Positions 1 through 64,000 are shown, numbered from the stretch's first letter. The stretch is DNA of 64,000 nt from Deinococcales bacterium (GCA_043775825.1 JAYVRX010000071.1:20399-84398), one strand, 5' to 3'. The notes: a model not told the origin generated them from the sequence alone. Numbers and translations are program-made.

Positions 1-2
1 CT

Positions 3-491
3 GTGTTCGAGTTAGGAAATCCTAAAATGGCGGCTCGAGGTTTTGAACGTGAGTATTTGACCAAAGAGCAAGCCCGACGTTTCATACCAGAATCAAGACA
101 AACCATCTGGTTTAAAATCATGCTCGTTGTGGTCTGGGTAACTATTCTTGGATTGTTCTTTTTGGATTTTAGGTTTCGTTATCCAACTTTGTTTGCCGCA
201 TTCAGTCTTTACTTTTTAGGAAAGAGTTCTTTTCTGACAATGATTTTGTTGTTCGATTCTGTCTTAAGAGCATTGTTGCAACGAAATCGCAGTTTGCCCA
301 TCGTAGCTTCTGTCATGGTGCTCGAGTATTTGACGATAGCCACTGGCATTGTAGTCTGGTATTTTTTCGCACCTGCGCCATTTAAAATCCCAACCTGGAC
401 TTTTTTGACTTTCATGACTGTTTTGACTGTTGGGATGGCTTATACTGAATTGCCAATTCTGCAAAAATTACGTACTCGAGCGTCAACATAA
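3..491 (+). CDS. hypothetical multi-pass membrane protein (possibly 5'-truncated at window edge)
   Basis: 162-aa ORF with several hydrophobic helices. No recognisable family. AT-richer than its neighbours. Confidence 0.4.
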   Translation: MFELGNPKMAARGFEREYLTKEQARRFIPESRQTIWFKIMLVVVWVTILGLFFLDFRFRYPTLFAAFSLYFLGKSSFLTMILLFDSVLRALLQRNRSLPIVASVMVLEYLTIATGIVVWYFFAPAPFKIPTWTFLTFMTVLTVGMAYTELPILQKLRTRAST

Positions 492-1617
492 AAACCCAAA
501 TCTCGAGATTACACTCTCCCATGAGAATCCCCTCAATGTTTCGCGGTATCATCCCAGCGTGAGCCGTAAAATCACCACCACCATCATTTCCGACCCGCTC
601 GAGTGGAATCAACTCGTCACCAGTTTCTCGCATTACAGCGCTTTGCAAGGTTGGGGCTTCGGTGAGGTGCGCCGCATCAGCGGTTGGACGCCGCACCGTT
701 TGAAACTCGAGCGTGATGGTGTGGCGTTCGCCGCCGCGCAAGTGTTGCGCCGCAAGCAAACGGGACTCAGTTTCCTGTACTGCCCGCGTGGTCCCGCCAT
801 GAATTCGTTCAGTGACCTCGAGGATGTGGGCGCGGCTTTGAAAGCCTGGGCTGGCGCGGGCGATGTCAGCATCAAGATCGAACCCCCGATTCCGCTCTTG
901 TCCGACGGCACGGGCAGCAACATTGTAGAGCGTTACGGCGTCTGGAAGAACTCGAGCACCATTCAACCGGAGCACACGATTTTGCTGGATTTGACCAAAC
1001 CCGAAGACCAGTTTTTCAAGAACATGCACGAGATGGCGCGGCGCAACACCCGCACCAGCCTCAAATTGGGCGTGACCGCGCAACCCGAAGACGATTTTGA
1101 GAGTTTCTGGGTGCTTTTTTCCGAAACCAACAGGCGCTCGAGTTTGTTGCAGCGCCAAAAGAATTATTACGAGGCGGTCTGGAAAGAATGCAACAAATTT
1201 GGTGGCGAAGCCGTCATCATCACCGCCCGTCACGAGGGCGTGCCGCTCGCCAGCGGTTTGATTATCGGTCTGGGTCACGACCTGAATTACCTGTACGGCG
1301 GCAGCACTCGGCAGATTCGCAAAGAAGGCGAGAAAGACCCCAAAGCCAGCAACGGTTTTTACTGGGGCATGATTCGGCACGGCATGGCGAGAGGGTACAA
1401 GTACCTGGATTTGTTCGGGATTCCCAAAACCATCTCTGAAGACAAGCACAGTTTTGGTGTTTACGAATTTAAAGAACGCCTGGGCGGGCAAAAAGTCTTC
1501 TTTCCAGCGTACGAGCAAAGCCTTTCACCGATCTCGAGCCTGATGAACACGGCGTTCAGAATTCGCAAGAATTACATGAATTACAAGGCTCGAGGGACGA
1601 CCAAAGACGTGCTCTAA
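430..1617 (+). CDS. FemAB-family peptidoglycan interpeptide-bridge aminoacyltransferase
   Basis: C-terminal pattern YLYGGST...FYWGMIRHGMARGYKYLDLFGIP...FGVYEFKERLGG is typical of FemAB/FemX (PF02388-like). The true start is probably internal (in-frame GTG at 559). Confidence 0.7.
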   Translation: MGWLILNCQFCKNYVLERQHKNPNLEITLSHENPLNVSRYHPSVSRKITTTIISDPLEWNQLVTSFSHYSALQGWGFGEVRRISGWTPHRLKLERDGVAFAAAQVLRRKQTGLSFLYCPRGPAMNSFSDLEDVGAALKAWAGAGDVSIKIEPPIPLLSDGTGSNIVERYGVWKNSSTIQPEHTILLDLTKPEDQFFKNMHEMARRNTRTSLKLGVTAQPEDDFESFWVLFSETNRRSSLLQRQKNYYEAVWKECNKFGGEAVIITARHEGVPLASGLIIGLGHDLNYLYGGSTRQIRKEGEKDPKASNGFYWGMIRHGMARGYKYLDLFGIPKTISEDKHSFGVYEFKERLGGQKVFFPAYEQSLSPISSLMNTAFRIRKNYMNYKARGTTKDVL

Positions 1618-1816
1618 AAACTCGAATGTCCCAACGCATCACCCGAGGCTTGAGGTGTAAGCTCGAGATCTAAAAGCATTGTTTTTTGGCGCGGCGTTCA
1701 GTAACCCATCTCTCATGACTGCAAGTCTGAAAAGGGGGTGCGTACATTTGGAGTTCGTTTCCAACACCATCAGAGACACCCGTTCTTAACCTCTCGAGAT
1801 TTTGGAGGTGGTTGTT

Positions 1817-3853
1817 GTGCGCGTCAGAAACGTTTCGGTGGTCGGTCATAACGGCGCAGGTAAAACCAGTTTGGTTGAGGGCTTGCTGTTCAAAGCGGGC
1901 GCTCGAGATCGGTTGGGACGCGTCGAAGATGGTACGACTGCCAGCGATCACACGGAAACCGAGAAAAAACGTGGCATGAGTGTGGCGACCAGCGTACTGA
2001 ATTTGTCTTGGCAAGACACGAGTCTGAATTTATTAGACGCGCCTGGGTACGCCGATTTTGTCGGTGAAATTCGCGGCGCGATGCGGGCGGCAGACTCGAG
2101 TTTGATTGTGGTCAGCGCGACCTCGGGCGTGTCGGTGGGCACGGAACGGGTTTGGAAAACGGCGGATGAGTTCAACATGCCGCGCATTGTGGTGGTTAAC
2201 AAACTTGACCGCGAGCATTCAGATTTTTTTGGGGCGTTGCACAGCGTTCATGACACGCTTTCCATGCAGGCGGTGGCTTCGCACATTCCGATTGGGTCAG
2301 AAAGTAATTTTCGTGGCGTGATAGACCTGCTGTCCGACAAAGCGTATGTTTACACCAACGGAAAGCTCGAGTTGCAAGAGATTCCTGAAGCGCTGGCAGA
2401 ATCCACCCGGGCGCACCGAACCAAATTGATTGAGGCAATTGTCGAAACCAATGAAGGCTTGATGGAACAGTATTTGTCCGACGAACCGCTCGAAGATCAA
2501 GCCGTGAAAAACGCCTTTCTCGAGGCGGTACATCACGGTGAATTGTTCCCGGTTTTGCCGCTCAGCAGCTCGGGTTTGGTTGGTTTAGAACCGCTTCTTA
2601 ATTTGATGGTTGAGGCACTTCGTGCGCCCAAAGATCGTCCCGAAGTGGTTGGCATCGATCAGCAAACTCGAGCGCCGAATATTGACGCGCCGTTTTCGGC
2701 TCGAGTTTGGCGTACCGCGATTGATCCTTTCGTCGGCAAAGTCGCTTATGTGCGCGTTTGGAGCGGGCAGTTGCACCCAGGCGATACGGTCAGAAACTCG
2801 CATTCGGACAAGGATTTCAAACTTGCGCACTTGTACACGCTGCGCGGCAAGGAATTGATCGAAGTTCCAGCTCTCGAGGCGGGCATGATTGGTGCGATCA
2901 CCAAAGTTCCTGACTTGCACACGGGCGATACCTTATGCGATCCGAATCGGCAGATTGATTTTGGACCGCTCGAGCTTCCGGAAGCCATCTCGAGCTTGGC
3001 GATTCATGCGGCGACCCGCTCGGACGAGGACAAACTGGGCACGGCTTTGGGCAAATTGCTCGAGGAAGACCCCACGCTGCATTTGACCCGCAACAATGAA
3101 ACTTCTGAGAGTTTGCTCTCGGGCATGGGTCACACGCACCTCGAGATTGCAGTCGAAAAACTGGGGTTGTACGGCGTGAACATCACCTCGAGTTTGCCCA
3201 AGATTGCGTACCGCGAAACCGTGCTGGCATCGGCGCAAGCCCAGGGTAAATTTAAACGGCAATCTGGTGGTCACGGACAGTACGGCGATTGCTGGTTACG
3301 GATTGAACCATCACATCAAGAATTTGAGTTTGTGTCAGAAGTGATTGGCGGGGTTGTACCGACCAAATACATTCCCAGCATCGAAAAAGGCGTCGAAGAA
3401 GCCAGACATCACGGCGCACTGGCGGGATACCCGTTGCAAAACATCAAAGTGGTTGTTTACGACGGCAGTTACCACGATGTTGACTCCTCGGACATGGCAT
3501 TCAAAACCGCTGGCAGCATTGGGCTGCGCAACGCCGCCGAAAAAGCCAAACCCGCCCTGCTCGAGCCGGTCATGCTGGTCAAAGTTCGCGTTCCAGAACG
3601 CTACACGGGCGATATTTTGGGCGATCTGAACACCCGCCGCGCCAAAGTGCAGGGCATGGAACCCGAGGGCGGGGTCACGGTCATCAGTGCGCTTGTGCCG
3701 CTTGCAGAAGTTCAAAATTATTCACCAGAATTGCACAGCCTGACCAGTGGACGCGGTGTGTACAGCATTAAATTTGATTCTTACGCCCAAGTTCCAGCGT
3801 TGCAAGCCGAAAAGATTATCAATGCTCGAAAAACAGAACTTGCGCACGCCTGA
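1817..3853 (+). CDS. elongation factor G paralog (EF-G2-like translational GTPase)
   Basis: G1 motif [22 protein letters not shown], and EF-G domains II-V by length and pattern. GGAGG lies 8 nt upstream of the GTG at 1817. Confidence 0.8.
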
Positions 3854-3868
3854 GAAAAAACCCGAGGT

Positions 3869-44768: not shown

Positions 44769-44784
44769 AGATATGGAGGCAAAC

Positions 44785-50263: not shown

Positions 50264-50436
50264 GTCAAACCGTCCTTAGAAGTTGAGAATCTCGAGTCAG
50301 TGTAGACCCGCAGCTTGGCTATTTTAGCCGATGCTCGAGGCTTGGGTATGAATGTTTGTTGTCACTTAAGGGGGTACATTGGTTTGAATTGTATAACTCG
50401 CCATCTGCACAAATTGAAAACGTGAACTTTGAGCAA

Positions 50437-50700: not shown

Positions 50701-50768
50701 GATGTTTGAGCGTTGCGTTTCCATGAGCAAACGGTATCAATCTCAAAACTCCCAAGATATAAGATTTT

Positions 50769-50969: not shown

Positions 50970-51084
50970 GAAAAGATTCTATCAGAAAACCCAGCAAAGA
51001 CCATTTCTCGAGCTGCAAACTGAAAAACCAAATAGCGGTGTCATCGCAGATAGGGGCAGCAAAAAGTAAGTTAAACTCCTTCAC

Positions 51085-52584
51085 ATGCTGACAGGAGAAA
51101 TTCGCAATCAAATAGACCGCGTTTGGGATGCTTTCTGGACGGGCGGCATCAGCAACCCGCTCGAGGTGATCGAACAACTGACCTACCTGCTGTTCATCAA
51201 ACGCCTCGATGACACGCACAAACTCGAGCTGAACAAACTGCAAACCATCGGTGAGGGCAAACTAATCTTCACCGAAGAGCAAGAACAATACCGTTGGAGC
51301 GTCTTTCAAAACGCCGAATCGGGCGATTTGTACAACATTATTGCCAACAAGGTCTTCCCATTCATCCGCGAGATGGGACAAGCCGACACCACCTTTGCGC
51401 GGCACATGAAAGACGCACGCTTTACCCTACCGCCAGAAAAAGCGGCGCTACTGACCAAAGTCGTGGATTTACTGAGCGCCATCAACATGGACAACCGCGA
51501 CACCAAAGGTGACCTGTACGAATATTTACTTTCCAAACTAGCCACCAGCGGACAAAACGGTCAATTTCGCACGCCAAGACACATCATCAAGTTAATCATC
51601 GAACTGACCCAACCAAATCCAGACGACATTATTTGCGACCCAGCCTGCGGCACAGCCGGATTTCTGGTCGCCGCGCTCGAGTACCTGATCGAGCATCACC
51701 GCAACGATATTTACAACAAAAAACGTCAGCATTTTGAAACCAAAATGTTCAACGCCTTCGATTTTGACAGTACTATGCTACGAATCGCCAGCATGAACAT
51801 GATGCTGCACGGCATCGCCAACGCCAACATTCAAAACAAAGACAGCCTCTCAGACACCAACGCCGACGCCAAAGAAGAATACAGCCTGATCCTCGCCAAC
51901 CCGCCGTTCAAAGGCAGTTTGCAATTTGAAACCGCCGCCAAAGACCTGGTGCGCGACTTGGGCATGAAAGCCCCCAAACCCAAAAAAGATGGCAAACCGA
52001 GCGGCGTGCAAGCCAAAACCGAACTGATGTTTTTGGTGTTGTTCTTACGCCTTTTAAAACCAGGTGGACGCTGCGCCGTGATTATCCCCGACGGTGTGCT
52101 GTTCGGCAGCAGCAACGCCCACCAAACCACCCGCAAAACCATCGTCGAAAATCATAAACTCGAGGCAATCATTTCCATGCCGAGCGGCGTTTTTAAACCT
52201 TACGCTGGCGTCAGCACCGCCATCATGATTTTTACCAAAACCGGCATTGGCGGCACGGACAACGTCTGGTTTTACGACATGCGAAGCGATGGTTACAGCC
52301 TGGATGACAAACGCAACCCAACCAACGACAACGACATTCCAGACATTATTCACCGTTACCGCAACCTCGAGGGTGAAACAAACCGTACCCGCACCGATCA
52401 AAGTTTTTTCGTACCAAAACCCGAGATTGCCGCGCAAAATTATGATCTCAGCATCAACCGGTACAAACAAACCGTGCATGAAGTCGTACAGCACGAAGCG
52501 CCACACAAAATCTTGGATGAACTCGAGGGTTTGGAACTCGAGATTGGGCAAGGTTTAAAAGAATTACGGGCGATGCTGACATGA
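51085..52584 (+). CDS. hsdM: type I restriction-modification system methyltransferase subunit
   Basis: HsdM N-terminal domain (IWDAFW-like VWDAFWTGG, YLLFIKRL), SAM motif DPACGTAGFL, catalytic NPPF. Confidence 0.95.
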   Translation: MLTGEIRNQIDRVWDAFWTGGISNPLEVIEQLTYLLFIKRLDDTHKLELNKLQTIGEGKLIFTEEQEQYRWSVFQNAESGDLYNIIANKVFPFIREMGQADTTFARHMKDARFTLPPEKAALLTKVVDLLSAINMDNRDTKGDLYEYLLSKLATSGQNGQFRTPRHIIKLIIELTQPNPDDIICDPACGTAGFLVAALEYLIEHHRNDIYNKKRQHFETKMFNAFDFDSTMLRIASMNMMLHGIANANIQNKDSLSDTNADAKEEYSLILANPPFKGSLQFETAAKDLVRDLGMKAPKPKKDGKPSGVQAKTELMFLVLFLRLLKPGGRCAVIIPDGVLFGSSNAHQTTRKTIVENHKLEAIISMPSGVFKPYAGVSTAIMIFTKTGIGGTDNVWFYDMRSDGYSLDDKRNPTNDNDIPDIIHRYRNLEGETNRTRTDQSFFVPKPEIAAQNYDLSINRYKQTVHEVVQHEAPHKILDELEGLELEIGQGLKELRAMLT

Positions 52585-52808
52585 ACTCGAGAATGGTGAA
52601 ATTAAATAAAAAAATAACAATAAATTCAATTCGGCAGACACTGTCTGCCGAATTCAGACCGATTCAACAAAATCAAATTCCGCAGACACTGTCTGCGGAA
52701 TTCAATAACCTTCAAAACCTCGAGCGCGAAGGGTGCAAGATGAAAAGTAAGACCGTGAAACTCGAGATTGGGCAAGGTTTAAAAGAATTGCGCGGGATGT
52801 TGGCATGA
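52585..52808 (+). mobile_element. 224-bp insert at the hsdM/hsdS junction: twin 27-nt palindromes plus a duplicated hsdM 3' end
   Basis: Palindromes AATTCGGCAGACACTGTCTGCCGAATT (52628-52654) and AATTCCGCAGACACTGTCTGCGGAATT (52676-52702). 52759-52808 repeats 52535-52584 (45/50). A 75-codon ORF spans the insert and is ATGA-coupled at both ends. Confidence 0.6.
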
Positions 52809-54034
52809 GTGATTTGAAGTTAAGAATAGAAGAGTTTTGCAAAACTGGAAGCGGAACTACTCCATCTCGAGAAAATTCTAACTACTACGCTGATGGCACG
52901 ATTCCGTGGGTCAAATCTGGTGAACTTAGAGAAAATTTAATACTTGGCACTGAGGAAACCATCACCGCCGAAGCCCTTAAAAAGACGAGCCTCAAACTTG
53001 TTCCGAAAGGTGCGATTTTGCTTGCTATGTATGGGGCGACAATTGGCAGAATGGCGATTCTGGGAATAGATGCAACGACAAATCAGGCTGTTTGCCACAT
53101 TATTCCAGATGAAAAAATGGCTGATACTCGATTTGTATATCGTGCTTTACAGCAAAAAATTCCTGAGTTAATTTCTCAGGCATCTGGTGGTGCTCAACCA
53201 AATATCAATCAACAGAAAATTAAAGCTCTCGAGATTCCCCTTCCGTCTCTCGAGCAGCAGCAACGAATCGCGCAGGTTTTGGATGCGGTGGATTCACTTT
53301 TAGGCAAACGTCGGGAGGGTTTGAAGAAGCTCGAGGTGTTGCTGAAAAGCGTGTTTTTGGAGATGTTTGGTGATCCTGTTACGAATCCTAAAGGTTGGGA
53401 AGAAGGTGTTTTGGGCGACGTAATTTATTCAGCTAAAGATGGTCCTCACGTAAGTCCTAAATATGCAGAGAAGGGTATTCCTTTTCTTTCAACAAGACAT
53501 ATTCGCCCAGGGAAGCTTATTCTTGAAGACTTAAAATACCTCTCTCCTCAAGAAGCGGATATCCATTGGAAAAAATGTAAACCTGAATTTGGAGACATCC
53601 TATACACAAAAGGCGGCACAACAGGGTTCGCCAAAGTTGTAGATTTCCATTTCGATTTCGCGGTTTGGGTTCACATAGCTGTGCTAAAAACGAACCATAA
53701 GTTGATCAATGGTTTATGGCTCGAGAATCTCTTGAATACTGAATATTGTTATTGGCAATCCCAAGAAAAAACTCATGGAATTGCTAATAAAGACCTCGGA
53801 CTTACACGAATGATAAATATAAAAATATTTATTCCGCCTCTCGAATTGCAGGCGAAATTCGCAGACACGGCGCGAAAAATAAATACTGAAACAGTTCTGC
53901 TCGAGAACTCTCTTTCTTCTCTCGAGAAACTTTTTGCTTCCCTTCAACACCAAGCCTTCAATGGCACGCTTTCGGCTGGGGTGCTCGAGCGGGAAGTGCA
54001 AAAACTCGGGGAGGTTCAGGCGGGGTTGTTCTGA
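52805..54034 (+). CDS. hsdS: type I restriction-modification system specificity subunit
   Basis: Two variable target-recognition domains separated by conserved helices (LPSLEQQQRIAQVLD..., PPLELQAKFA...). Confidence 0.9.
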   Translation: MSDLKLRIEEFCKTGSGTTPSRENSNYYADGTIPWVKSGELRENLILGTEETITAEALKKTSLKLVPKGAILLAMYGATIGRMAILGIDATTNQAVCHIIPDEKMADTRFVYRALQQKIPELISQASGGAQPNINQQKIKALEIPLPSLEQQQRIAQVLDAVDSLLGKRREGLKKLEVLLKSVFLEMFGDPVTNPKGWEEGVLGDVIYSAKDGPHVSPKYAEKGIPFLSTRHIRPGKLILEDLKYLSPQEADIHWKKCKPEFGDILYTKGGTTGFAKVVDFHFDFAVWVHIAVLKTNHKLINGLWLENLLNTEYCYWQSQEKTHGIANKDLGLTRMINIKIFIPPLELQAKFADTARKINTETVLLENSLSSLEKLFASLQHQAFNGTLSAGVLEREVQKLGEVQAGLF

Positions 54035-54077
54035 GTTAAGTCTTGACTTTACCAAATGTTGGTTTTAAACTACTCAC

Positions 54078-54449
54078 ATGGCGCGGTTGTACTTGTGTTT
54101 TAACCCGTATGAACCAAAACCAAAACGTGCGCCTTTGCTTTCGGATTGGCTCGAGTTGTGCTTGCATGGGAAGCAAGAATGCGTTAACAAAATGATTGAA
54201 ATGGTCGAAGATTTACACTCAGATGGGGTAGAAAGTCGGTACTTAAAATGGTTCGCGGGTGGTGTTGGCGAACTGAAAAGCCGAACTCCAATTGGTGGCG
54301 CTCGAGTTTACTTTTTTCGGATTGGCGAAGAAGATTTTGCTTTAACCCGCGCAGAATGCAAAAAAGAATCCGTTGCAGATCAGCAATTGATTGATTGGAC
54401 GTTTGAAGTGGCGACGCTGTACAAACAAGATGTGGAGGTGTTCTTATGA
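54078..54449 (+). CDS. RelE/HigB-like toxin of the phage Gp49 (DUF891) type
   Basis: ...GELKSRTPIGGARVYFFRIGEEDFALTRAECKKE.... 4-nt overlap with the downstream HTH gene. Confidence 0.55.
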   Translation: MARLYLCFNPYEPKPKRAPLLSDWLELCLHGKQECVNKMIEMVEDLHSDGVESRYLKWFAGGVGELKSRTPIGGARVYFFRIGEEDFALTRAECKKESVADQQLIDWTFEVATLYKQDVEVFL

Positions 54450-54832
54450 AAAAAGCTTTACCACCTCGAGAAAGTCTGCAATCGAGCATTGCCGAATTAA
54501 AAGCCATGCCTCTCGGAAGTATCATCTCGAGCGGACGTAAAGTGAGGGCAAAATCGGTGAGTGTTACTGACCTGAAACAAGATTTGTCAGATGCCTTGCT
54601 TGCCGAAAGTATTGGTGATTTGCTGCGTGAAGCCCGTTCTCGGCGGGGAATGACGGGTACGGAATTGGCTTCTAAATTGGGTACGAGCAAAGTGCGGGTT
54701 TCGCAACTCGAACATGCAGAATTAAATATTGAATTGGCGACTTTGGCTCGAGTGGCTGGTGTTCTGGGTTACGAGTTGCAGGTGGCTTTTGTGGCTGGTT
54801 CTGAACGTATTTCGCATCAGCACAAGGTTTGA
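54446..54832 (+). CDS. XRE-family HTH antitoxin (HigA-like)
   Basis: LREARSRRGMTGTELASKLGTSKVRVSQLEH. Confidence 0.7.
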   Translation: MKKALPPRESLQSSIAELKAMPLGSIISSGRKVRAKSVSVTDLKQDLSDALLAESIGDLLREARSRRGMTGTELASKLGTSKVRVSQLEHAELNIELATLARVAGVLGYELQVAFVAGSERISHQHKV

Positions 54833-54841
54833 TTTTTGAAT

Positions 54842-54871
54842 CTCGAGGAAGTTCAGGCGGTGTTGTTCTGA
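54842..54871 (+). repeat. duplicated copy of the hsdS 3' end including its stop codon
   Basis: CTCGAGGAAGTTCAGGCGGTGTTGTTCTGA versus 54005-54034 CTCGGGGAGGTTCAGGCGGGGTTGTTCTGA (27/30). Confidence 0.8.
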
Positions 54872-54960
54872 AAATGTTGGGGTCTTGGCTTATTCTGTTA
54901 TTAACGTAGTGCATTTTGCGTATGGCAATTGCTCCACAACGCCCTATAATCAAAGCATCC

Positions 54961-57900
54961 ATGAGCAACTTCTTGTTCTTACAAAAAGACTTTCCAAACT
55001 TGTTTGAAGAGGCAAGACTTGCCGAACGCAACGCGCTTTCGGATGCCAGAGTCTCGAGTGTTTACGCCAGGCGCACGCTCGAGGCTCTGGTCAAATGGTT
55101 GTACGCGAACGACCCAGCGTTTACCAAACCGTATGACACGACCCTAAACGGTTTGATGGGGTCGGAGGCGTTTGAAAAAAACGTGCCTTACGCGGTCATT
55201 TTGTTGGCGCAAACCGTTCGCAAAAAAGGCAATGCGGCGGCGCATGACACCAAAAATATTGCGGTTTCCGAGGCGCTGGCGCTGCTTCGGGATTTGTTTT
55301 TGGTGCTGCATTGGTTCGCGCATTTGTACCGTGCAGATGCCGCGCAAGTGCTGTCGGTAAGTTTTGATGAAACGCTTGTGCCGCCGGCGCTGGCGGACGT
55401 GCAACAAAAAACCTTGAGCGAAATTCAGACGCTCGAGAGGGCTTTAAAAGAAAAGATTGATGCGCTCGAGTCTGAACGTGCCGAGTCTGCCAGTGCAAAG
55501 GCAGAATTGGCAGCTTTGCGTGCGCAAATGGTGGCGCGTAAAACCACCAACTTCCAAACTGGTATTTCAACACCGTTCTCGGAGGCACAAACCCGTGAAC
55601 GCCTGATCGATTTAATGCTCCAGGAGGCGGGTTGGGATTTGAGCGCGTCCAACATCCGCGAGGTCAGCACCGGCGCGGGCAGGGCAGATTACGTGCTGTG
55701 GGGGCAAGACGGTTTGCCGCTGGCGGTGATCGAAGCCAAAAAAACCTCGCGCGACCCTCGGGTTGGACAAAAACAGGCGCTCGATTATGCGCAGGCGCTC
55801 GAGAAACAATACGGGCGTTTGCCAATTGTTTTTTACAGCAACGGCGTTAAAACTTTTGTTTGGGACAAAGCGCGTGGTTATCCGCCCCGAACCGTGCAAG
55901 GTTTTTACAGCCAAGACGACTTGGAGTTAATGATTCAACGCCGCAAAACGGCGCTTAAACTCGAGGATGTCAGCATCAACCAAGGCATTGCGGATCGTTA
56001 CTATCAACAGACGGCGATTCGTAAATTCTCGGATCGGTTGGAAGGGTTTCACCGCAAAGGTTTGCTGGTCATGGCGACGGGTACGGGCAAAACTCGAGTT
56101 ACGATTGCGCTGATCGAACTTTTAATGCGAGCCAACTGGGTCAAACGCGTGTTGTTTCTGGCAGACCGTAACGCCCTGGTGCGGCAAGCCAAAAAAGCTT
56201 TTGTGCGCCATTACCCTGCCGCAAATGCCATAAACCTGGTCGAAGAAAAAGATGTGACTGGCGCTCGGGTGGTTTTAAGCACGTATCACACCATGATGCG
56301 GCAACTCGAGGCTGGGGCGTTCACGGTTGGGCATTTTGATTTGATTGTGATTGACGAGGCGCACCGCAGCATTTACAGCACTTTTGGCAGTATTTTCGCG
56401 TATTTTGACGCGATGCTGTTGGGTTTGACCGCCACACCGCGCGATGAGGTAGATCGTAACACTTACGGCTTGTTCGACATGCACGACAACGTGCCCGTTT
56501 TCGAGTACGGCTTGGAGCAGGCGGTGCGCGACGGTTTTCTTGTCCCGCCGGCGTCGTTTCGGGTGAACGCCAAGTTTTTACGCGAGGGCATCACTTACGA
56601 CGAGCTTTCCGATGTTGAAAAACAAGAATACGACGAGATTGACTGGGAAGAACACGGCGGGCGGCGCGAACAAATTCAGAACACCGAACTTTACAAATGG
56701 TTGTTCAACAAAGACACCGTAGATCAAGTGCTCGAGTCTCTGATGACGCACGGTTTAAAAGTGTCTGGTCAGGACGTGCTGGGCAAAACCATTATTTTCG
56801 CGCAGAGCATCGCGCACGCCCAGTTTATTCAAGAACGTTTTGATCTCAATTACCCGCACCTGGCAGGCACATACGCCCAGGTGATTGCCAACAACATTGA
56901 GCGCAGCGACCAGTTGATAGACCAATTCAGCGAAACGCTAATGCCGCGCATTGCCATCAGTGTGGACATGCTCGACACGGGTATTGACGTGCCAGAAATT
57001 CTGAATTTGGTGTTTTTTAAACGGGTGCAAAGCAAAACCAAATTCTGGCAGATGCTCGGACGCGGCACGCGTTTAAGTGAGAATATTTTTGGTGCTGGAC
57101 AGCACAAAACCCAATTTGCACTGTTTGACTTTTGTGGCAACCTCGAATTTTTCAACGCGCACCCAAAAGGCATTGAAGCCACAGTAACCCAGTCGCTCGA
57201 GCAACGGTTGTTTAAACTGCGGGTTGATGTGCTGCAAGCTTTAGAAGCCCAAACCGATGACCCAGAAACCCAAGTCTTGCACAGCGACCATGCCAATGTT
57301 TTGCATGAACGAATTTGTGCGATGCCGCAAAACAATTTTTTGGTTCGTCCGCACCTGGAACTGATCGAACGGTTCTCGAACCGCGACGCTTGGAATACCC
57401 TTTCGCGTCTGGACGCCAGGGACATCAAAACCGAACTCTCCAATTTGCCAAGTGCCATTGTTGACAACGACGAGAATGCAAAGCGCTTTGATTCACTGAT
57501 TTTTCAAGCCAGCCTGGGCATTCTCGAGGGCGCACCCAGAAGTGGGGTACAAAACCGGATTCAGGCGCTGTGCGCTGGACTTGAGCGCAAACGAAACGTG
57601 CCGCAAATCAAAGCGAATTTAACTTTAATTCAAGACCTTCAAACCCCAGATTTCTGGGCGAACGCCAGCGCCTCTCATCTCGAGGACGTTCGTTTGCGGC
57701 TGCGCGGTTTGATGGCTTTAATTGATGCCGAGGAACGCGCCGCCAGACTCGAGACGGACTTTGAAGATCAATTTGGAATCCCTGAAGCCCTGGCGTTAAA
57801 TGCTTTGGACATCAACATTGACCGCGAGGCGTACCATAAAAAAGTTGAGGCTTTCATTCACACGCATTTAAAACATCCAGTGATTCAAAAATTACGACTC

Positions 57901-58305
57901 GCGCAACCGCTCAACCCCGCCGATCTACGCACCCTCGAAGAATTTTTGTTCAATGCCCGCGAACTCGAATCTCGAGCCACCTTTGAATGGGCTTACGGCA
58001 CCCAAAACAACCTGGGACGGTTTATTCGCAGTTTGGTCGGTTTGGATCGGGCGGCAGCCAAAACCGCCTTTGGCACGTACTTGGACGGTAAAACCTTCTC
58101 GAGCGACCAGATTCTATTTGTCAATTTCATCATTGATGCCCTCACCCATAACGGCACGATGAGCCAGCAGGCTTTGTTTGAAGCCCCGTTTACCGACATT
58201 CACACGCAAGGCATCAATGGTTTGTTCAACCCAGATCAAGTGCAGGCATTGCTGGCAACCTTAAATCAATTGAACACGATTGAAACCAAACCGATGCTTG
58301 GATAA
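54961..58305 (+). CDS. hsdR: type I restriction endonuclease subunit R with N-terminal DUF4145-like domain
   Basis: N-terminal FPNLFEEARLAE...GNAAAHD, nuclease core (ADYVLW...IEAKK), helicase motifs MATGTGKT and DEAH (VIDEAHRS), and an EcoEI-R-like C-terminal domain. Confidence 0.9.
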   Translation: MSNFLFLQKDFPNLFEEARLAERNALSDARVSSVYARRTLEALVKWLYANDPAFTKPYDTTLNGLMGSEAFEKNVPYAVILLAQTVRKKGNAAAHDTKNIAVSEALALLRDLFLVLHWFAHLYRADAAQVLSVSFDETLVPPALADVQQKTLSEIQTLERALKEKIDALESERAESASAKAELAALRAQMVARKTTNFQTGISTPFSEAQTRERLIDLMLQEAGWDLSASNIREVSTGAGRADYVLWGQDGLPLAVIEAKKTSRDPRVGQKQALDYAQALEKQYGRLPIVFYSNGVKTFVWDKARGYPPRTVQGFYSQDDLELMIQRRKTALKLEDVSINQGIADRYYQQTAIRKFSDRLEGFHRKGLLVMATGTGKTRVTIALIELLMRANWVKRVLFLADRNALVRQAKKAFVRHYPAANAINLVEEKDVTGARVVLSTYHTMMRQLEAGAFTVGHFDLIVIDEAHRSIYSTFGSIFAYFDAMLLGLTATPRDEVDRNTYGLFDMHDNVPVFEYGLEQAVRDGFLVPPASFRVNAKFLREGITYDELSDVEKQEYDEIDWEEHGGRREQIQNTELYKWLFNKDTVDQVLESLMTHGLKVSGQDVLGKTIIFAQSIAHAQFIQERFDLNYPHLAGTYAQVIANNIERSDQLIDQFSETLMPRIAISVDMLDTGIDVPEILNLVFFKRVQSKTKFWQMLGRGTRLSENIFGAGQHKTQFALFDFCGNLEFFNAHPKGIEATVTQSLEQRLFKLRVDVLQALEAQTDDPETQVLHSDHANVLHERICAMPQNNFLVRPHLELIERFSNRDAWNTLSRLDARDIKTELSNLPSAIVDNDENAKRFDSLIFQASLGILEGAPRSGVQNRIQALCAGLERKRNVPQIKANLTLIQDLQTPDFWANASASHLEDVRLRLRGLMALIDAEERAARLETDFEDQFGIPEALALNALDINIDREAYHKKVEAFIHTHLKHPVIQKLRLAQPLNPADLRTLEEFLFNARELESRATFEWAYGTQNNLGRFIRSLVGLDRAAAKTAFGTYLDGKTFSSDQILFVNFIIDALTHNGTMSQQALFEAPFTDIHTQGINGLFNPDQVQALLATLNQLNTIETKPMLG

Positions 58306-58343
58306 ATATAAATCCATCCTCCAAAATAACTTAAAATCAAGCC

Positions 58344-59443: not shown

Positions 59444-60598
59444 ATGGATTTGCTTGACAAGGCGTTATCAGGCTCGAGGCTCAACCTCGAAGAAATCGTT
59501 GCGTTGTACCACCTGCCACTGCCTGATCTGGCAAGTGCGGCACATCAAATGCGGCTGGCAAAAACCCGTCCCGATGTTGTCACCTACCTGATAGACCGTA
59601 ACATCAATTACACCAATATTTGCAACGTCGGCTGTAACTTCTGCGCCTTTTACCGCACGCCACGTCAGAACGATGCTTACACTCTGTCTTTCGAGCAGAT
59701 TTCGCAAAAAGTCAGCGAACTCGAGGAGATTGGCGGCACACGCATTTTGCTTCAAGGCGGTGTGAATCCAGCCTTGCCGTTTGAATGGTATCTCGAGATG
59801 CTCGAGTTTCTGAAAAAACATCATCCAACCATCAAAATTGATGCGTTTAGTCCCGAAGAAATTCTCGGACTCGAGAAAATCACGGGTCTTGACGCGCTCG
59901 AGATTATCAGCCGCATGAAAGAATCTGGTCTGGATGGACTGCCCGGCGCTGGCGGTGAAATTCTCGAGGATGAGGTGCGTCTCGAAGCCGCCCCCGCCCG
60001 TATTCCGAGCGCGGATTGGTTCAGAATTCTTGATGTTGCCCAAGGTTTGGGCTTGTACACGATTAGCACGATGGTCATCGGTTTCGGCGAGACCCTGACG
60101 CAACGCGCCCGTCACATGATCAAAATCCGCGATCAACAAGACCGTGCAAATGCTGTTCACGGCGGCAACGGCTTTGCGGGCATGGCGATTTGGACGCTGC
60201 AAACCGAAAACACCCGACTGCAAGGCAAAGCTCCAGGTGCTACCGCTCACGAATACTTACGCAATTTGGCTGTCTCGAGGTTGGCGCTGGATAACATTTC
60301 TAACATTCAAGTTTCGTGGCCAACGCTTGGGTTTAAAGTTGCACAAGTCGGCTTGTTTTACGGCGCGAACGATTTCGGCAGCACCATGATGGAAGAAAAC
60401 GTGGTTAGTCAAGCCGGTGGTCATGACCGCGTGCGCGTCACCGAGCGCGAGATCATCCGTCATATTAACGACGCCGGATTCACCCCAGCACAGCGCGACT
60501 CGAGGTTCAACATCATCAAATACCCAGATGTGCAAGCCAAACTCGAGCAACCCGAACCAATGCTGGCTGCGAAACTCGAGCCAGCAGTGAATGTTTGA
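59444..60598 (+). CDS. radical SAM enzyme of the futalosine menaquinone pathway (MqnE/MqnC family)
   Basis: IDRNINYTNICNVGCNFCAFYR (CxxxCxxC), and length plus pattern typical of MqnC/MqnE. The two cannot be told apart by eye. Confidence 0.75.
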   Translation: MDLLDKALSGSRLNLEEIVALYHLPLPDLASAAHQMRLAKTRPDVVTYLIDRNINYTNICNVGCNFCAFYRTPRQNDAYTLSFEQISQKVSELEEIGGTRILLQGGVNPALPFEWYLEMLEFLKKHHPTIKIDAFSPEEILGLEKITGLDALEIISRMKESGLDGLPGAGGEILEDEVRLEAAPARIPSADWFRILDVAQGLGLYTISTMVIGFGETLTQRARHMIKIRDQQDRANAVHGGNGFAGMAIWTLQTENTRLQGKAPGATAHEYLRNLAVSRLALDNISNIQVSWPTLGFKVAQVGLFYGANDFGSTMMEENVVSQAGGHDRVRVTEREIIRHINDAGFTPAQRDSRFNIIKYPDVQAKLEQPEPMLAAKLEPAVNV

Positions 60599-62243: not shown

Positions 62244-62359
62244 AAAACCCGATTGAAAGCATTATTGACGTGCTGCTCGAGGCGGCGCACCGAAAAGAAC
62301 GCATGGGGGATATTTTGCCGAAAATTCGGGAACGCACGATGGTAGCGATAGGTGGTTGA
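62244..62359 (+). pseudogene. orphan duplicate of the last 38 codons of moaA
   Basis: 62244-62355 matches 61548-61659 at 110/112 nt. It encodes NPIESIIDVLLEAAHRKERMGDILPKIRERTMVAIGG plus a stop, with no upstream moaA body. Confidence 0.9.
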
Positions 62360-62496
62360 AGCTCGAGAAATTGGATGTTCATATCAAAAATTAAGACTTC
62401 ACTGGAACTGATTGAATCAAACCAGCGTAATGATGAAGTGGTATTTGGTTTACCGCTCATGTGCATGAGCAGATTTAATTTTTTTGGAGGTCTTTG

Positions 62497-63033
62497 ATGT
62501 TTCGCTGGTTCATTAAAATGATTTATGGCTCGACACTTATCACCTTTAATAGTTCTTATAACCTCCCTAAGTCTGTTGTCCGACTCAGAACCGCAACTAG
62601 TACGGCAAATTCTTTTTCGTTACGTCAGTCTTCAGCTACAGGTGTGGTGACGGAACAAAAGGTTACACTTCAACGGAGCATTCCTTTTGTTGGGAATTCG
62701 TTTAAGCCTTATTTTGTGGGTCGTTTTTCTAACAATAACGGTCAGGTTGTTTTGATTGGTCAATTCACCATGCACTGGTATGTCAAAATATTTTTGAGCA
62801 TCTGGTTTGGGTTTCTCAGCTTGATAACTGTTTTAGGTCTGTTCGCCACAATAACAATAAAGCAAAATCAAGCCACAGGTTGGCAATTCGCGCTTTTCTG
62901 CGTTGGGATGTTCGGTGCTGGAACGCTTTTGGTTTGGTCAGGTCAGTGGTTTGCTCGTCAAGATATCGCATGGTTGTCAAGCATTATTCAGAAGGCATTG
63001 TCTGAAGTGAATCTAAACGATGAAAAATCATGA
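62497..63033 (+). CDS. hypothetical membrane protein
   Basis: GGAGG lies 7 nt before the ATG. Two C-terminal TM helices. Visibly AT-richer and has no CTCGAG. Confidence 0.5.
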   Translation: MFRWFIKMIYGSTLITFNSSYNLPKSVVRLRTATSTANSFSLRQSSATGVVTEQKVTLQRSIPFVGNSFKPYFVGRFSNNNGQVVLIGQFTMHWYVKIFLSIWFGFLSLITVLGLFATITIKQNQATGWQFALFCVGMFGAGTLLVWSGQWFARQDIAWLSSIIQKALSEVNLNDEKS

Positions 63034-63094
63034 ATAAACCGTTGGGAACAGTTTAAAACCATCCCCAACAAAATTTAAAAACTCGAGATTTACA
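63033..63094. repeat. duplicate of the rplI stop-codon and terminator region
   Basis: 62 nt matching 63834-63895 with 4 mismatches. Includes a degenerate copy of the terminator hairpin and TTACA (rplI stop plus 2 nt). Confidence 0.85.
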
Positions 63095-63101
63095 ACCAGT
63101 A

Positions 63102-63338: not shown

Positions 63339-63754
63339 GCTGTACTCCTTTGCATTTGTAAAAATTCTTGAGGTTGGATGGCTCGAATCCCAAATTTTTC
63401 TGAACCCACAAAGTCTTTGATGTTGTATGTCACGATGTACTCGCATTGTGCGTGCCATGCCAATTCGAGCAGGTGGTCATCTTTTGGGTCGCGTATGGCT
63501 GGTCGCCAGGTGTAATACAACCGAGGGCGGTAGGCAATGCTTGCCAGGTAATCGAGGATGTCTTCAATGGCTTGGTGCTCGAGTGGGATTTTCATTTCTG
63601 GGCGCTTAAGGACATCTTCGTACTCGAGAATCAAAGCGGTTGAAAGGGCAAGGGTGAATTTTTGTTCGTACAGGAGCGTTAAAATCTGGTAGGAAGCCCC
63701 TTGGTTTGAACGTAAGCCTGAAACAATGACGTTGGTGTCAAGAACAACGGGCAT
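63335..63754 (-). CDS. PIN-domain toxin (TIGR00305-like), toxin-first operon order
   Basis: MPVVLDTNVIVSGL, ...PKDDHLLELA..., YIVTYNIKDF. Confidence 0.8.
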   Translation of the reverse strand: MPVVLDTNVIVSGLRSNQGASYQILTLLYEQKFTLALSTALILEYEDVLKRPEMKIPLEHQAIEDILDYLASIAYRPRLYYTWRPAIRDPKDDHLLELAWHAQCEYIVTYNIKDFVGSEKFGIRAIQPQEFLQMQRSTA

Positions 63755-63836
63755 AATTTATGGTAGTACAGATGCAACCAAAATTCAAGCTCGAGTCTGA
63801 CAAAACCTCAGCATCTCAACGGCAGTGCTCAACAAT

Positions 63837-63871
63837 AAAACGTTGGGGACAGTTTAAAACCATCCCCAACG
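63837..63871 (-). terminator. rho-independent terminator of rplI
   Basis: On the minus strand: CGTTGGGGA-13 nt loop-TCCCCAACG followed by TTTTATT. Confidence 0.7.
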
Positions 63872-63890
63872 AAATTTTAAAACTCGAGAT

Positions 63891-64000
63891 TTACAGCGCG
63901 GTAATGTTTAACTTCAAAGGAATTGGCACTTCAGGATGTGGTTTGTACACCACTTCGTACTCGCCTAAATCCTTGATGGCTTTGCCCATGTCAATCTTGC
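63891..64000 (-). CDS. rplI: 50S ribosomal protein L9, C-terminal part (gene continues beyond the window)
   Basis: Reverse translation ...KIDMGKAIKDLGEYEVVYKPHPEVPIPLKLNITAL* matches the L9 C-terminal domain pattern. Confidence 0.7.
   Translation of the reverse strand, partial: KIDMGKAIKDLGEYEVVYKPHPEVPIPLKLNITAL

What the first reader, a model, noticed from the sequence alone, without database searches (positions are those of the whole stretch)
1..64000. Extreme over-representation of the palindrome CTCGAG throughout the window (HIP-like hexamer)
Hand counts give 13 copies in nt 1-1800 (at 34, 321, 475, 502, 598, 706, 817, 951, 1137, 1533, 1589, 1662, 1793). There are about 17 in the 2.7-kb acnA gene and about 15 in the 3.3-kb hsdR gene. 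That is roughly one per 140-220 bp, against one per 4096 bp for a random hexamer at even base composition. The hexamer appears in all three reading frames, which is why the proteins are visibly rich in LE, SR and AR dipeptides. It is found on genes of both orientations, in intergenic DNA, in conserved housekeeping genes (acnA, hem genes) and in TA and R-M cassettes. I see no extended consensus around it, and one-off variants (CTCGAA, CTCGAC, CTCGGG) are also frequent. The closest known precedent is HIP1 (GCGATCGC) of cyanobacteria, but this is a different, shorter and apparently denser word. No XhoI-type R-M gene lies in this window; the only R-M system here is type I. A mutation or repair bias coupled to a CTCGAG-specific methyltransferase, or a role as a recombination or uptake signal, would both be novel.
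Basis: seen in the sequence. Interest (0 to 1): 0.85.

Follow-up and report, generated by a model that had tools for sequence, protein, structure and literature searches.

The report
Hyper-abundant CTCGAG word in Deinococcota clade
The six-letter palindrome CTCGAG occurs about once every 150 bases (27 times more than chance) throughout this uncultured Deinococcus-Thermus relative and its kin, giving a second, independent case of the unexplained "highly iterated palindrome" phenomenon so far known only from cyanobacteria.

Summary
There are 427 CTCGAG in 64 kb (15.8 expected), making it the top hexamer and 4% of all bases.

- **Not protein-driven.** It has no flanking consensus and equal density in genes and spacers. 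74% of Leu-Glu pairs are spelt CTCGAG against 3% expected. A synonymous shuffle gives 37±6 against 377 observed.
- **Not an artefact.** Independent assemblies and ten related loci share it.
- **Lineage-specific.** It is extreme (4.5-8.9 per kb) in an uncultured Deinococcota clade, moderate in Meiothermus-like contigs, and avoided in sister lineages.
- **Exact word favoured.** All six positions favour the cognate base over every alternative.
- **Sites persist.** They are positionally conserved (62-85% against 24-54% for control hexamers) and are missing from recently acquired islands.
- **Sites interfere.** They interfere with each other only within about 20 bp.

It behaves like cyanobacterial HIP1, but in another phylum, with another word, and denser. 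The mechanism is unresolved. My best guess (about 0.4) is a methylation-linked exact-word recognition system that biases allele fixation, possibly through natural transformation or recombination. A deamination (Vsr-type) repair bias alone is excluded. No cognate methyltransferase gene could be searched for genome-wide.

The parts
1..64000 (.). 427 dispersed copies of the palindrome CTCGAG (first at 34, last at 63883). Mean spacing is 150 bp, and 4.0% of all bases lie inside the word.
47543..50263 (-). acnA (aconitase) with 17 sites. About 6 sit on peptides conserved in 77 outgroup orthologues (synonymous recruitment). About 10 sit where outgroups have other residues, so the protein was remodelled to LE/SS and similar.
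27131..36191 (+). hem operon (hemC, hemD, hemB, histidine kinase, response regulator, hemE, hemH, hemY-like, hemF) with 69 sites (7.6 per kb). This block was used for the orthologue comparisons with L167-L171 and for the raw-read check.
1802..3853 (+). EF-G-family gene with 13 sites. It was used as the marker to place the lineage and to map where the trait starts and stops.
50379..58330 (.). Accessory island absent from the syntenic relative L001. It holds a ParE-like toxin and type I hsdM (51085-52584), hsdS (52805-54034) and hsdR (54916-58305, 15 sites). CTCGAG density is near normal at 5.5 per kb, so the island has probably long resided in this gene pool.
62291..63101 (.). Low-GC (0.40) segment in a variable hot spot with only 2 sites; ORF 62494-63033 has none. 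The relative L001 carries a low-GC ABC-3C defence island at the same spot with 1-2 sites in 3.2 kb. Recently acquired DNA lacks the word.
42580..46059 (+). Densest block (queA plus tandem glyoxalase/VOC genes): 38 sites, 10.9 per kb.
14198..16201 (+). SurA/PpiD-like gene with unexplained low density (4 sites, 2.0 per kb) at normal GC.
59791..59806 (.). Example of a rare closely spaced pair (CTCGAGATGCTCGAG, spacing 10 bp). In L001 the second copy reads CTCGAA. Pairs closer than 20 bp occur at 0.2-0.4x of expectation.

Best explanation
CTCGAG is a HIP-type 'genomic watermark' of an uncultured Deinococcota clade. It is an exact 6-bp palindromic word kept at about 1 per 150 bp by a fixation bias that favours the exact word over every one-letter neighbour. 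This bias works against ordinary, mainly transition, mutational decay.

Shown here:
- The pressure acts on DNA, not on protein or codon usage.
- It acts on all six positions.
- It acts in every frame and in spacers.
- Sites persist at orthologous positions.
- Sites behave independently of one another, except for interference within about 20 bp.
- The word is missing from recently acquired DNA.
- The trait is lineage-restricted and graded within the phylum.

Inferred:
- The word is read by a highly specific, probably dimeric protein with a footprint of about 20 bp.
- This is most likely a CTCGAG-specific DNA methyltransferase and/or a reader of the methylated site.
- The fixation bias arises because site number marks DNA as 'self' during natural transformation and homologous recombination. 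That would be an uptake or recombination preference, as now proposed for methylated HIP1 in cyanobacteria.
- Alleles that carry the word are therefore transmitted more often.
For: **DNA-level exact-word pressure.** 230 of 311 Leu-Glu pairs are spelt CTCGAG, against about 3% expected from codon usage elsewhere. A synonymous shuffle that keeps proteins and codon usage gives 36.9±6.0 sites against 377 observed. Intergenic density is about 8 per kb.

**All six positions.** Each favours the cognate base over each alternative, with log-odds of 2.1-6.1. Steps from two-off to one-off gain little, about 0.5 (computed from the counts). This is the threshold-like specificity typical of restriction/modification-grade recognition.

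**Positional conservation.** Conservation is 45/53 between window and L001, 87/107 with L167, 41/66 with L169 and 48/60 with L170, against 24-54% for control hexamers. Intergenic sites are included, at 20/26. Orthologous Leu-Glu positions are correlated in spelling, with odds ratios of 17-26 for L167, L169 and L170 and not estimable for L001, which has a zero cell (p=0.006).

**Interference within about 20 bp.** Among 1301 gaps, spacing is 0.16x of expectation at 6-8 bp, rising to at least 1.16x at 21 bp and beyond. Leu-Glu is spelt CTCGAG in 10-28% of cases within 15 bp of another site, against 71% beyond 21 bp. For a 20-bp cut-off the Fisher p is 4.5e-9.

**Independence beyond that.** Spacing is otherwise near-exponential, and there is no compensatory turnover.

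**Foreign islands lack the word**.

**Phylogenetic pattern.** Sister lineages avoid the word: 3 observed against about 21 expected CTCGAG-spelt Leu-Glu pairs. This implies that CTCGAG-specific enzymes circulate in the phylum.

**Literature context.** Methylated HIP1 raises transformation up to 100-fold in Synechococcus PCC 7002 (bioRxiv 10.1101/2024.09.10.611283). HIP1 abundance co-varies with DNA-uptake machinery (bioRxiv 10.64898/2026.06.24.733823). That Thermus and Deinococcus are naturally competent is my own background knowledge.
Against: - No CTCGAG- or TCGA-type methyltransferase gene was found in the window or in about 300 kb of clade DNA, and a genome-wide search was not possible.
- Methylation status is unknown.
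- Competence of this clade is unknown. Thermus DNA uptake is reported to be sequence-independent (background knowledge).
- Known uptake sequences are 9-12-mers at about 1 per kb and are not palindromic.
- Fixation bias from selection and from biased repair leave the same comparative signature, so the functional part of the statement is inference.
- The type I R-M island, which is accessory DNA, has near-normal density. This requires it to be old in the gene pool.
- No phage of the clade carrying the word could be identified.
Confidence: 0.4

Rival explanations
1. A neutral molecular ratchet with no function for the sites, along the lines of Elhai's model for HIP sequences. A replication error that completes a methyltransferase site is methylated on the new strand. 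It is then protected or fixed by strand-directed or site-directed mismatch repair. Existing sites are repaired back when mutated. The abundance would be an epiphenomenon of methylation plus repair.
For: The model predicts favouring of the exact word from any one-off neighbour at all six positions. It predicts equal action in genes and spacers, accumulation with residence time and per-site independence. It also predicts reduced creation next to an existing site. The model is published for HIP1 and for the hexamer GGCGCC (PMC4390886, section 3.4). Biased repair mimics selection in conservation tests.
Against: Deinococcus-Thermus bacteria lack MutH/Dam-type methyl-directed repair (background knowledge). 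The model predicts saturation at the range of mismatch repair (about 1 kb), whereas here density is 1 per 150 bp and interference reaches only about 20 bp. No methyltransferase was found. The protein-altering cost (about 10 of 17 acnA sites; LE 2.4x) must be borne with no benefit.
Confidence: 0.25
2. Selection for binding sites of an abundant nucleoid-associated or chromosome-organising protein, the function proposed for HIP1 by Xu, Lawrence and Durand. Each site would add a small amount of compaction or organisation.
For: The exclusion within about 20 bp is what a protein footprint predicts, and it is strongest at 6-8 bp, where hairpins cannot form. Conservation includes intergenic sites. Density is uniform across 64 kb. 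The model has a precedent for HIP1 (PMC5861425).
Against: There is no regular spacing beyond 20 bp and no compensatory replacement of lost sites. No candidate protein is known. The 10-90 kb periodicity reported for HIP1 cannot be assessed in a 64-kb window. It is unclear why sister lineages would avoid the same word.
Confidence: 0.15
3. Overshooting very-short-patch repair. An m5C methyltransferase acting on CTCGAG, together with a Vsr-like T:G endonuclease, would convert T-containing near-sites into sites, as with CCWGG in E. coli.
For: The commonest one-off neighbours and the three most recent losses include C-to-T products such as CTTGAG, TTCGAG and CTCGAA.
Against: The bias is equally strong at positions where the favoured base is T or A, and against transversion neighbours (S 3.0-6.1). 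T:G-specific repair cannot produce that. T-containing one-off words are not depleted below other neighbours. The magnitude (27x) far exceeds the modest E. coli effect (my recollection of the literature).
Confidence: 0.05
4. A by-product of protein composition or codon and codon-pair usage (Leu-Glu-rich proteins, preferred CTC and GAG codons).
For: 61% of coding sites are in the CTC-GAG frame. High-GC genomes show a roughly 2-fold Leu-Glu codon-pair excess as a baseline.
Against: Outside Leu-Glu pairs, CTC makes up 10% of Leu codons and GAG 31% of Glu codons. The synonymous shuffle gives 37 sites against 377 observed. Intergenic density equals or exceeds coding density. The other two frames are also enriched. 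The spelling depends on the distance to the next site.
Confidence: 0.01
5. An artefact (assembly, chimera, cloning linkers or synthetic design), or a dispersed mobile repeat (REP/MITE) that carries the word.
For: None found.
Against: Logan contigs of two sediment-metagenome runs reproduce 9 kb with zero differences. Ten loci from independent studies, at 71-96% protein identity, share the trait, with sites at orthologous positions. There is no flank consensus. Most copies lie inside conserved genes.
Confidence: 0.01

Closest known systems
HIP1 (GCGATCGC) and alternate HIPs of cyanobacteria (GGCGCC in Calothrix PCC 7103, GGGATCCC in Synechococcus JA strains, CAGGCCTG in PCC 6312)
   Same: A short GC-containing palindrome that is hyper-abundant and dispersed through genes and spacers, with no mobile-element context. 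It is positionally conserved between related genomes above background. It is lineage-specific, with intensity and even the word changing between relatives. A hexamer precedent exists (GGCGCC). The mechanism is unresolved. (PMC4390886, PMC5861425)
   Different: The phylum is different (Deinococcota), and HIP1 abundance is stated not to occur outside cyanobacteria (PMC5861425). The word is different. It is 6 rather than 8 bp long. Absolute density is higher (1 per 113-220 bp here against at most 1 per 350 bp). The cognate methyltransferases known for HIP1 were not found or testable here. All six positions are about equally constrained, whereas HIP1 deviates mostly at its outer positions. The 20-bp mutual exclusion has, to my knowledge, not been described for HIP1. 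Long-range periodicity is untestable in 64 kb.
DNA uptake sequences (Neisseria DUS, Pasteurellaceae USS)
   Same: An over-represented word found in all frames. It remodels proteins at tolerant positions and is scarce in recently acquired DNA. Its accumulation can be explained by uptake bias plus recombination (molecular drive). The phylum contains naturally competent genera.
   Different: DUS and USS are non-palindromic 9-12-mers at about 1 per kb, and are often paired in terminators. Uptake specificity has been demonstrated experimentally for them; here nothing about uptake is known.
Chi (crossover hotspot instigator) sites
   Same: A short over-represented word that acts as a self-marker in recombinational repair. 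A Chi-like role has been suggested for methylated HIP1 (bioRxiv 10.1101/2024.09.10.611283).
   Different: Chi words are asymmetric and strongly skewed with replication direction, and they are read by RecBCD/AddAB. A palindrome cannot carry orientation.
Dcm/Vsr-driven excess of CCWGG in E. coli
   Same: Over-representation of a methyltransferase target through biased repair.
   Different: That effect is small and is restricted to T:G mismatches. Here the excess is 27-fold and all six positions are involved.
Restriction-site avoidance (palindrome avoidance)
   Same: The word is a classical type II target (XhoI/PaeR7I). The same window shows strong avoidance of other palindromes (GGCC 2 copies; GGCGCC, CCGCGG and CGATCG 0), and sister lineages avoid CTCGAG itself.
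   Different: The sign is opposite in this clade.

Membership tests
Highly iterated palindrome (HIP) class | A short palindromic word with a genome-wide observed/expected ratio of roughly 15 or more | tested here: met
   O/E is 27 (order 0), 42 (order 1) and 18 (order 2) in the window, and 14-39 in ten related loci.
Highly iterated palindrome (HIP) class | Dispersed in coding and non-coding DNA, and not part of a longer repeat or mobile element | tested here: met
   All frames and spacers are used, and flank information is at most 0.3 bit.
Highly iterated palindrome (HIP) class | Sites conserved at orthologous positions above background, and not explained by codon conservation | tested here: met
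   Conservation is 62-85% against 24-54% for control hexamers in every phase, including intergenic. Orthologous Leu-Glu spelling is correlated.
Highly iterated palindrome (HIP) class | A cognate (often orphan) DNA methyltransferase in the genome | not testable with these tools
   Only a type I hsdM is present in the window. No methyltransferase motifs were found in about 300 kb of clade loci. Whole genomes could not be scanned.
HIP1 proper | The sequence GCGATCGC in a cyanobacterial genome | tested here: not met
   The word is CTCGAG. CGATCG occurs 0 times in the window. The lineage is Deinococcota.
HIP1 proper | Long-range (10-90 kb) periodic distribution | not testable with these tools
   A 64-kb window is too short. 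Only short-range statistics are available.
DNA uptake sequence (DUS/USS) | Preferential uptake of DNA that carries the word by the competence machinery | not testable with these tools
   This needs an experiment. There is no cultured member of the strong-trait clade among the hits.
DNA uptake sequence (DUS/USS) | A non-palindromic 9-12-mer at about 1 per kb, often as inverted pairs in terminators | tested here: not met
   The word is a 6-bp palindrome at 1 per 150 bp with no extension.
DNA uptake sequence (DUS/USS) | Depleted in recently acquired DNA relative to the core genome | tested here: met
   Low-GC islands in L001 and in the window carry 0-2 sites per 0.8-3.2 kb. The type I R-M island, however, has near-normal density.
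Chi site | An asymmetric word with orientation skew relative to replication | tested here: not met
   The word is its own reverse complement.
VSP-repair (Dcm/Vsr-type) site excess | A bias confined to restoring C at T:G mismatches within the methyltransferase site | tested here: not met
   T at position 2 and A at position 5 are favoured over C and G, and transversion neighbours are disfavoured even more.
REP/BIME/MITE dispersed repeats | An extragenic element of 20 bp or more with a conserved imperfect palindrome | tested here: not met
   88% of copies are intragenic and there is no flank consensus.

The most novel reading that the evidence does not exclude
CTCGAG would be a functional self-identity code of a Deinococcota clade and an independent evolutionary origin of HIP-type genome architecture. 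A dedicated, abundant, site-specific protein with a footprint of about 20 bp would read tens of thousands of exact (probably methylated) hexamers. It would thereby gate which DNA is taken up, recombined or spared. Selection for this code would be strong enough to have rewritten amino-acid sequences genome-wide. Related lineages would sit at every stage, from avoidance through moderate to extreme enrichment, so the origin of a HIP could be reconstructed step by step.
Probability: 0.3. Interest if true: 0.9.

Novelty: new variant of a known kind. Interest (0 to 1): 0.75.

Why it matters
The function and origin of highly iterated palindromes have been open for three decades, and the phenomenon has been regarded as a cyanobacterial peculiarity. 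A second, independent case changes that. It lies in another phylum, uses another word, and is denser than any HIP1 genome. It therefore allows the competing ideas (methylation-driven repair ratchet, transformation or self-recognition signal, nucleoid architecture) to be tested by comparison rather than within one lineage.

This case has useful properties:
- It shows a phylogenetic gradient within one phylum. The word is avoided in Deinococcus-like sisters, moderately enriched in Meiothermus-like contigs and extreme in the uncultured clade.
- Cultured, naturally competent relatives that may carry a weaker version (Allomeiothermus silvanus, O/E 3.7) are available for experiments.
- It gives a sharp quantitative phenotype: exact-word log-odds of 2-6 at each position, and an interference length of about 20 bp.

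It also shows how strongly a DNA-level word can reshape proteins. Leu-Glu is 2.4-fold enriched, and most acnA sites sit on clade-specific residues.

Finally, it warns that surveys using maximal-order Markov or sub-word-normalised statistics will score such words as 'normal' (O/E 1.15 here).

Tried and rejected
It gives O/E 1.15 and is uninformative, because the sub-words are saturated by the hexamer itself.

2. **'Concerted multi-nucleotide rewriting' of sites.** Window/L001 differences looked clustered. With codon-phase-matched controls the excess of differences at 3 or more positions is marginal: 3/8 against 8.5%, and 5/20 against 16%. Saturated synonymous positions explain it. Dropped.

3. 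**Inner-core (TCGA) hypothesis**, by analogy with CGATCG inside HIP1. After normalising for codon usage, the outer positions are as constrained as the inner ones. TCGA outside the hexamer is near expectation, at 195 against about 250. Not supported.

4. **Spacing or coverage maintenance.** There is no compensatory gain near lost sites. Spacing is near-exponential beyond 20 bp.

5. **Hairpin avoidance as the cause of the short-range exclusion.** The exclusion is strongest at 6-8 bp, where no hairpin loop can form.

6. **Metagenome scan for close relatives with HemE.** It returned only relatives at 69% identity or below. Close relatives were obtained instead through the protein search and contig look-ups.

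7. **Search for phages of the clade** by triple-site patterns in IMG/VR. Results were chance hits, a poly-serine repeat (L282), and high-GC viral contigs of unknown host. Inconclusive.

8. **Methyltransferase motif scan** of about 300 kb of clade DNA. Only hsdM was found, plus false positives in aconitase and HemL.

9. **Literature searches.** CTCGAG was searched together with palindrome, over-representation, Meiothermus, Thermus, Deinococcus and HIP. No report was found. The library excludes most subscription journals, so absence is not proof.

Full report
**Observation.** The window (64,000 bp, GC 50.3%) contains 427 copies of CTCGAG. A base-composition model expects 15.8 copies, so O/E is 27. 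First- and second-order Markov models give O/E of 42 and 18. The word is the commonest hexamer by a factor of five over any hexamer that does not overlap it. It accounts for 69% of all TCGA and 87-90% of all CTCGA/TCGAG, and it occupies 4.0% of all bases. Density is even across the window at 8-25 sites per 2 kb, with one sparse stretch at 14-16 kb.

This happens only because the sub-words are saturated by the hexamer itself, so that test is blind here and its 'ratio near 1' must not be read as a refutation. One-off variants are near their chance level rather than 'frequent'.

**It is a DNA-level word, not a protein or codon effect.** I used a crude set of 67 ORFs covering 89% of the window.
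- 377 sites are coding (6.6 per kb) and the spacers carry about 8 per kb.
- All three frames are used: 230 as CTC-GAG, 59 as xCT-CGA-Gxx and 88 as xxC-TCG-AGx.
- Of 311 Leu-Glu dipeptides, 230 (74%) are spelt CTCGAG. Away from Leu-Glu, CTC is only 10% of Leu codons and GAG 31% of Glu codons, so about 3% is expected.
- Shuffling synonymous codons while keeping every protein and the overall codon usage yields 36.9±6.0 sites against 377 observed.
- The pressure has changed proteins. Leu-Glu is the most enriched dipeptide (2.4x) and Ser-Ser is next (1.7x).
- In aconitase, about 6 of the 17 sites sit on peptides conserved in 77 outgroup orthologues. About 10 sit where outgroups have other residues, for example AK/AE/PD changed to LE.
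- There is no extended consensus. Flank information is at most 0.3 bit, and at most 0.12 bit for intergenic sites.

**It is not an artefact, and it is lineage-specific.** Logan contigs assembled independently from two sediment-metagenome runs reproduce window 27000-36000 without a single difference.

Among 80 aconitase loci from GTDB species representatives, only the three nearest relatives share the trait. These are MAGs labelled 'Deinococcales bacterium', at 96% and 81% amino-acid identity, with 5.4-6.0 sites per kb. The other 77 loci, from other phyla, do not share it.

An EF-G-family gene places the lineage in Deinococcota. Its nearest named relatives are Deinococcus pimensis, D. peraridilitoris and D. 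yavapaiensis at 62-63%. Contigs around EF-G orthologues show a sharp boundary:
- At 74% and 71% identity the word is the top hexamer, with 4.5-4.7 sites per kb at GC 60.5% and 46.6%.
- At 68% identity there is 1 site in 18 kb.
- D. peraridilitoris and another relative have O/E 0.3.

In four such non-carrier lineages, Leu-Glu is spelt CTCGAG 3 times where their own codon usage predicts about 21. They avoid the word.

HemE relatives add five more strong carriers, at 5.9-8.9 sites per kb and O/E up to 39. They also reveal a moderate version of the trait:
- In Meiothermus-like contigs the word is the rank-1 hexamer in most (rank 1-8), at 1.6-3.0 per kb, and Leu-Glu is spelt CTCGAG 38-59% of the time against 9-13% expected.
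- A Meiothermus sp. genome has 1.85 sites per kb (53% against 11%).
- Two Truepera-related contigs also show it.

Truepera radiovictrix and unrelated high-GC genomes show only a roughly 2-fold baseline. The megaplasmid of the cultured Allomeiothermus silvanus shows a mild excess, at O/E 3.7. All strong carriers among the hits are uncultured.

**Evolutionary behaviour.** Sites persist at orthologous positions far more than control hexamers in the same codon phase.

| Comparison | nt identity | CTCGAG conserved | Control hexamers |
|---|---|---|---|
| Window vs L001 | 88-90% | 45/53 | 52-54% |
| Window vs L167 | 81% | 87/107 | 33% |
| Window vs L169 | 76-78% | 41/66 | 24-29% |
| Window vs L170 | 76-77% | 48/60 | 26-32% |

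Intergenic sites are conserved at 20/26. Orthologous Leu-Glu positions agree in whether they are spelt CTCGAG. The odds ratio is 17-26 for L167, L169 and L170, and cannot be estimated for L001, whose table has a zero cell (p=0.006).

A four-genome alignment of 7.9 kb shows turnover on every branch, with roughly balanced gains and losses. The three differences between two genomes that are 98% identical are all losses: CTTGAG, TTCGAG and CTCGAT.

I measured the bias at synonymous third positions, in the frame that exposes each position of the word. The cognate base is favoured over each of the three alternatives at all six positions. Log-odds are 2.1-3.8 against transition neighbours and 3.0-6.1 against transversion neighbours. 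Steps from two-off to one-off words gain almost nothing, about 0.5 (from the counts). The recognised unit is therefore the exact hexamer, with threshold-like specificity.

Recently acquired DNA lacks the word. A low-GC ABC-3C defence island in L001 has 1-2 sites in 3.2 kb, and the window's own low-GC segment at the same hot spot (62291-63101) has 2. The type I R-M island (50379-58330), which is absent from L001, has 5.5 sites per kb. It is therefore probably old in this gene pool.

**Interference between sites.** Across 1301 inter-site gaps in ten carrier loci, spacing is close to exponential except below about 20 bp. Observed/expected is 0.16 at 6-8 bp, 0.28 at 9-14 bp, 0.42 at 15-17 bp, 0.68 at 18-20 bp, and at least 1.16 from 21 bp onward.

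The same effect appears with protein sequence held fixed. A Leu-Glu pair is spelt CTCGAG in 10-28% of cases when another site lies within 15 bp, in 61% at 18-20 bp, and in about 71% beyond 21 bp. For a 20-bp cut-off the Fisher p is 4.5e-9.

The exclusion is strongest where a hairpin loop is sterically impossible. It therefore fits a protein footprint of roughly two helical turns better than secondary-structure avoidance; this is an inference.

Beyond 20 bp the sites behave independently. A site lost in one genome is not replaced nearby in the other, so regular coverage is not what is being maintained.

**Mechanism.** What is shown is a strong fixation bias for the exact word. It acts on any DNA long resident in these genomes, in balance with mainly transition decay, and it has a local saturation length of about 20 bp.

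A Vsr-type deamination repair bias is excluded as the sole cause. Codon or protein explanations, mobile repeats and artefacts are excluded.

Comparative data cannot separate selection from biased repair or biased transmission, because all three raise conservation. I rank the remaining models as follows:
- **About 0.4:** a methylation-linked exact-word recognition system whose site count marks self DNA in natural transformation and recombination.
- **About 0.25:** a function-less methylation/repair ratchet of the kind Elhai proposed for HIP sequences (PMC4390886).
- **About 0.15:** a binding site for nucleoid architecture, as proposed for HIP1 (PMC5861425).

Methylated HIP1 boosts transformation up to 100-fold (bioRxiv 10.1101/2024.09.10.611283). 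HIP1 abundance co-varies with DNA-uptake machinery (bioRxiv 10.64898/2026.06.24.733823).

The circumstantial case for an enzyme link has three parts. CTCGAG is a classical type II target. The same window strongly avoids many other palindromes: GGCC has 2 copies, and GGCGCC, CCGCGG, TCGCGA, CGATCG, GGTACC, CCATGG and GAGCTC have 0. Sister lineages avoid CTCGAG itself.

However, the only DNA methyltransferase in the window is a type I hsdM on an accessory island. No further methyltransferase motifs occur in about 300 kb of clade DNA.

**Comparison with known systems.** The element meets the tested defining features of the HIP class. It is a palindromic word, hyper-abundant, dispersed without a repeat context, and positionally conserved beyond codon conservation. 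[quoted passage not shown] A hexamer HIP (GGCGCC) is known within cyanobacteria (PMC4390886).

The element differs from uptake sequences in length, symmetry and density. It differs from Chi in lacking orientation, and from the Dcm/Vsr effect in magnitude and in the positions involved.

Nine full-text searches found no report of CTCGAG enrichment in Deinococcota or elsewhere. The library omits most subscription journals, so this is weak negative evidence. A large survey of recognition-site representation uses sub-word-normalised measures (PMC4687349). By the logic, such measures would tend to under-call a saturated word like this one; this is an inference.

**Verdict.** It is a genuine, lineage-specific, HIP-like hyper-abundant palindrome in a new phylum, with new quantitative features: exact-word bias at all six positions, interference within about 20 bp, and a gradient from avoidance to enrichment among relatives. 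The mechanism is not established.

Noticed in passing
window 1-64000: Many other palindromes are strongly avoided. GGCC has 2 copies (about 250 expected). GGCGCC, CCGCGG, TCGCGA, CGATCG, GGTACC, CCATGG and GAGCTC have 0; GCGCGC has 1; CTAG 25; CCGG 49. GGCC avoidance is shared by the ~50% GC relatives (L001-3, L082, L167-170) but not by the ~60% GC carriers L081 and L171 (66 and 98 copies). It is therefore a separate, younger signature, probably of a HaeIII-type system.
   Followed up: partly
window 50379-58330: An accessory island lies next to acnA and is absent from the syntenic relative L001. It holds a ParE-like toxin (50437-50730), type I hsdM, hsdS and hsdR, and two small ORFs (54078-54832). 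Its CTCGAG density is near normal (5.5 per kb).
   Followed up: partly
window 61931-63832; L001 2614-5858: A variable hot spot holds different low-GC cargo in each genome. L001 carries an ABC-3C (DUF2326/CTD10/MC6) conflict system with almost no CTCGAG. The window carries unannotatable ORFs (61841-62290, 62494-63033) and a PIN toxin (63335-63754).
   Followed up: partly
window 27131-36191: The haem biosynthesis operon has a histidine kinase (29694-30890) and a response regulator (30797-31615) embedded between hemB and hemE. The same arrangement is conserved in Meiothermus (L292), Truepera (L293) and all clade loci.
   Followed up: no
window 43681-46059: Five tandem glyoxalase/VOC-family genes lie here. 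Together with queA (42580-43668) they form the block with the highest CTCGAG density in the window (10.9 per kb).
   Followed up: no
window 14198-16201, 9524-10984, 38166-39173: Three genes (SurA/PpiD-like, PEGA-domain and EamA transporter) have only 2-3 CTCGAG per kb at normal GC. The reason is unexplained.
   Followed up: no
L083, L085 (Deinococcus peraridilitoris CP003382), L086, L103: Related lineages without the trait under-use CTCGAG, with O/E 0.2-0.3. Leu-Glu is spelt CTCGAG 3 times where about 21 are expected. This suggests XhoI-type restriction pressure in parts of the phylum.
   Followed up: partly
L286, L238, L201/L278 (IMG/VR contigs): High-GC (64-69%) viral contigs of unknown host have CTCGAG as their top hexamer (5-7 per kb). 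In L286 and L238 it often appears as CCTCGAGG, a context that is disfavoured in the window's clade; L201/L278 show GCTCGAGC/GAGCTC instead.
   Followed up: no
window 36268-37680: An ATPase_2/DUF234 protein has a weak Mrr_cat (restriction endonuclease fold) match at its C-terminus. It lies between the hem operon and a GNAT gene.
   Followed up: no
ten carrier loci pooled: There is a slight excess of inter-site spacings at 27-35 bp (1.4x) just beyond the exclusion zone, on top of the 3-bp coding periodicity.
   Followed up: no
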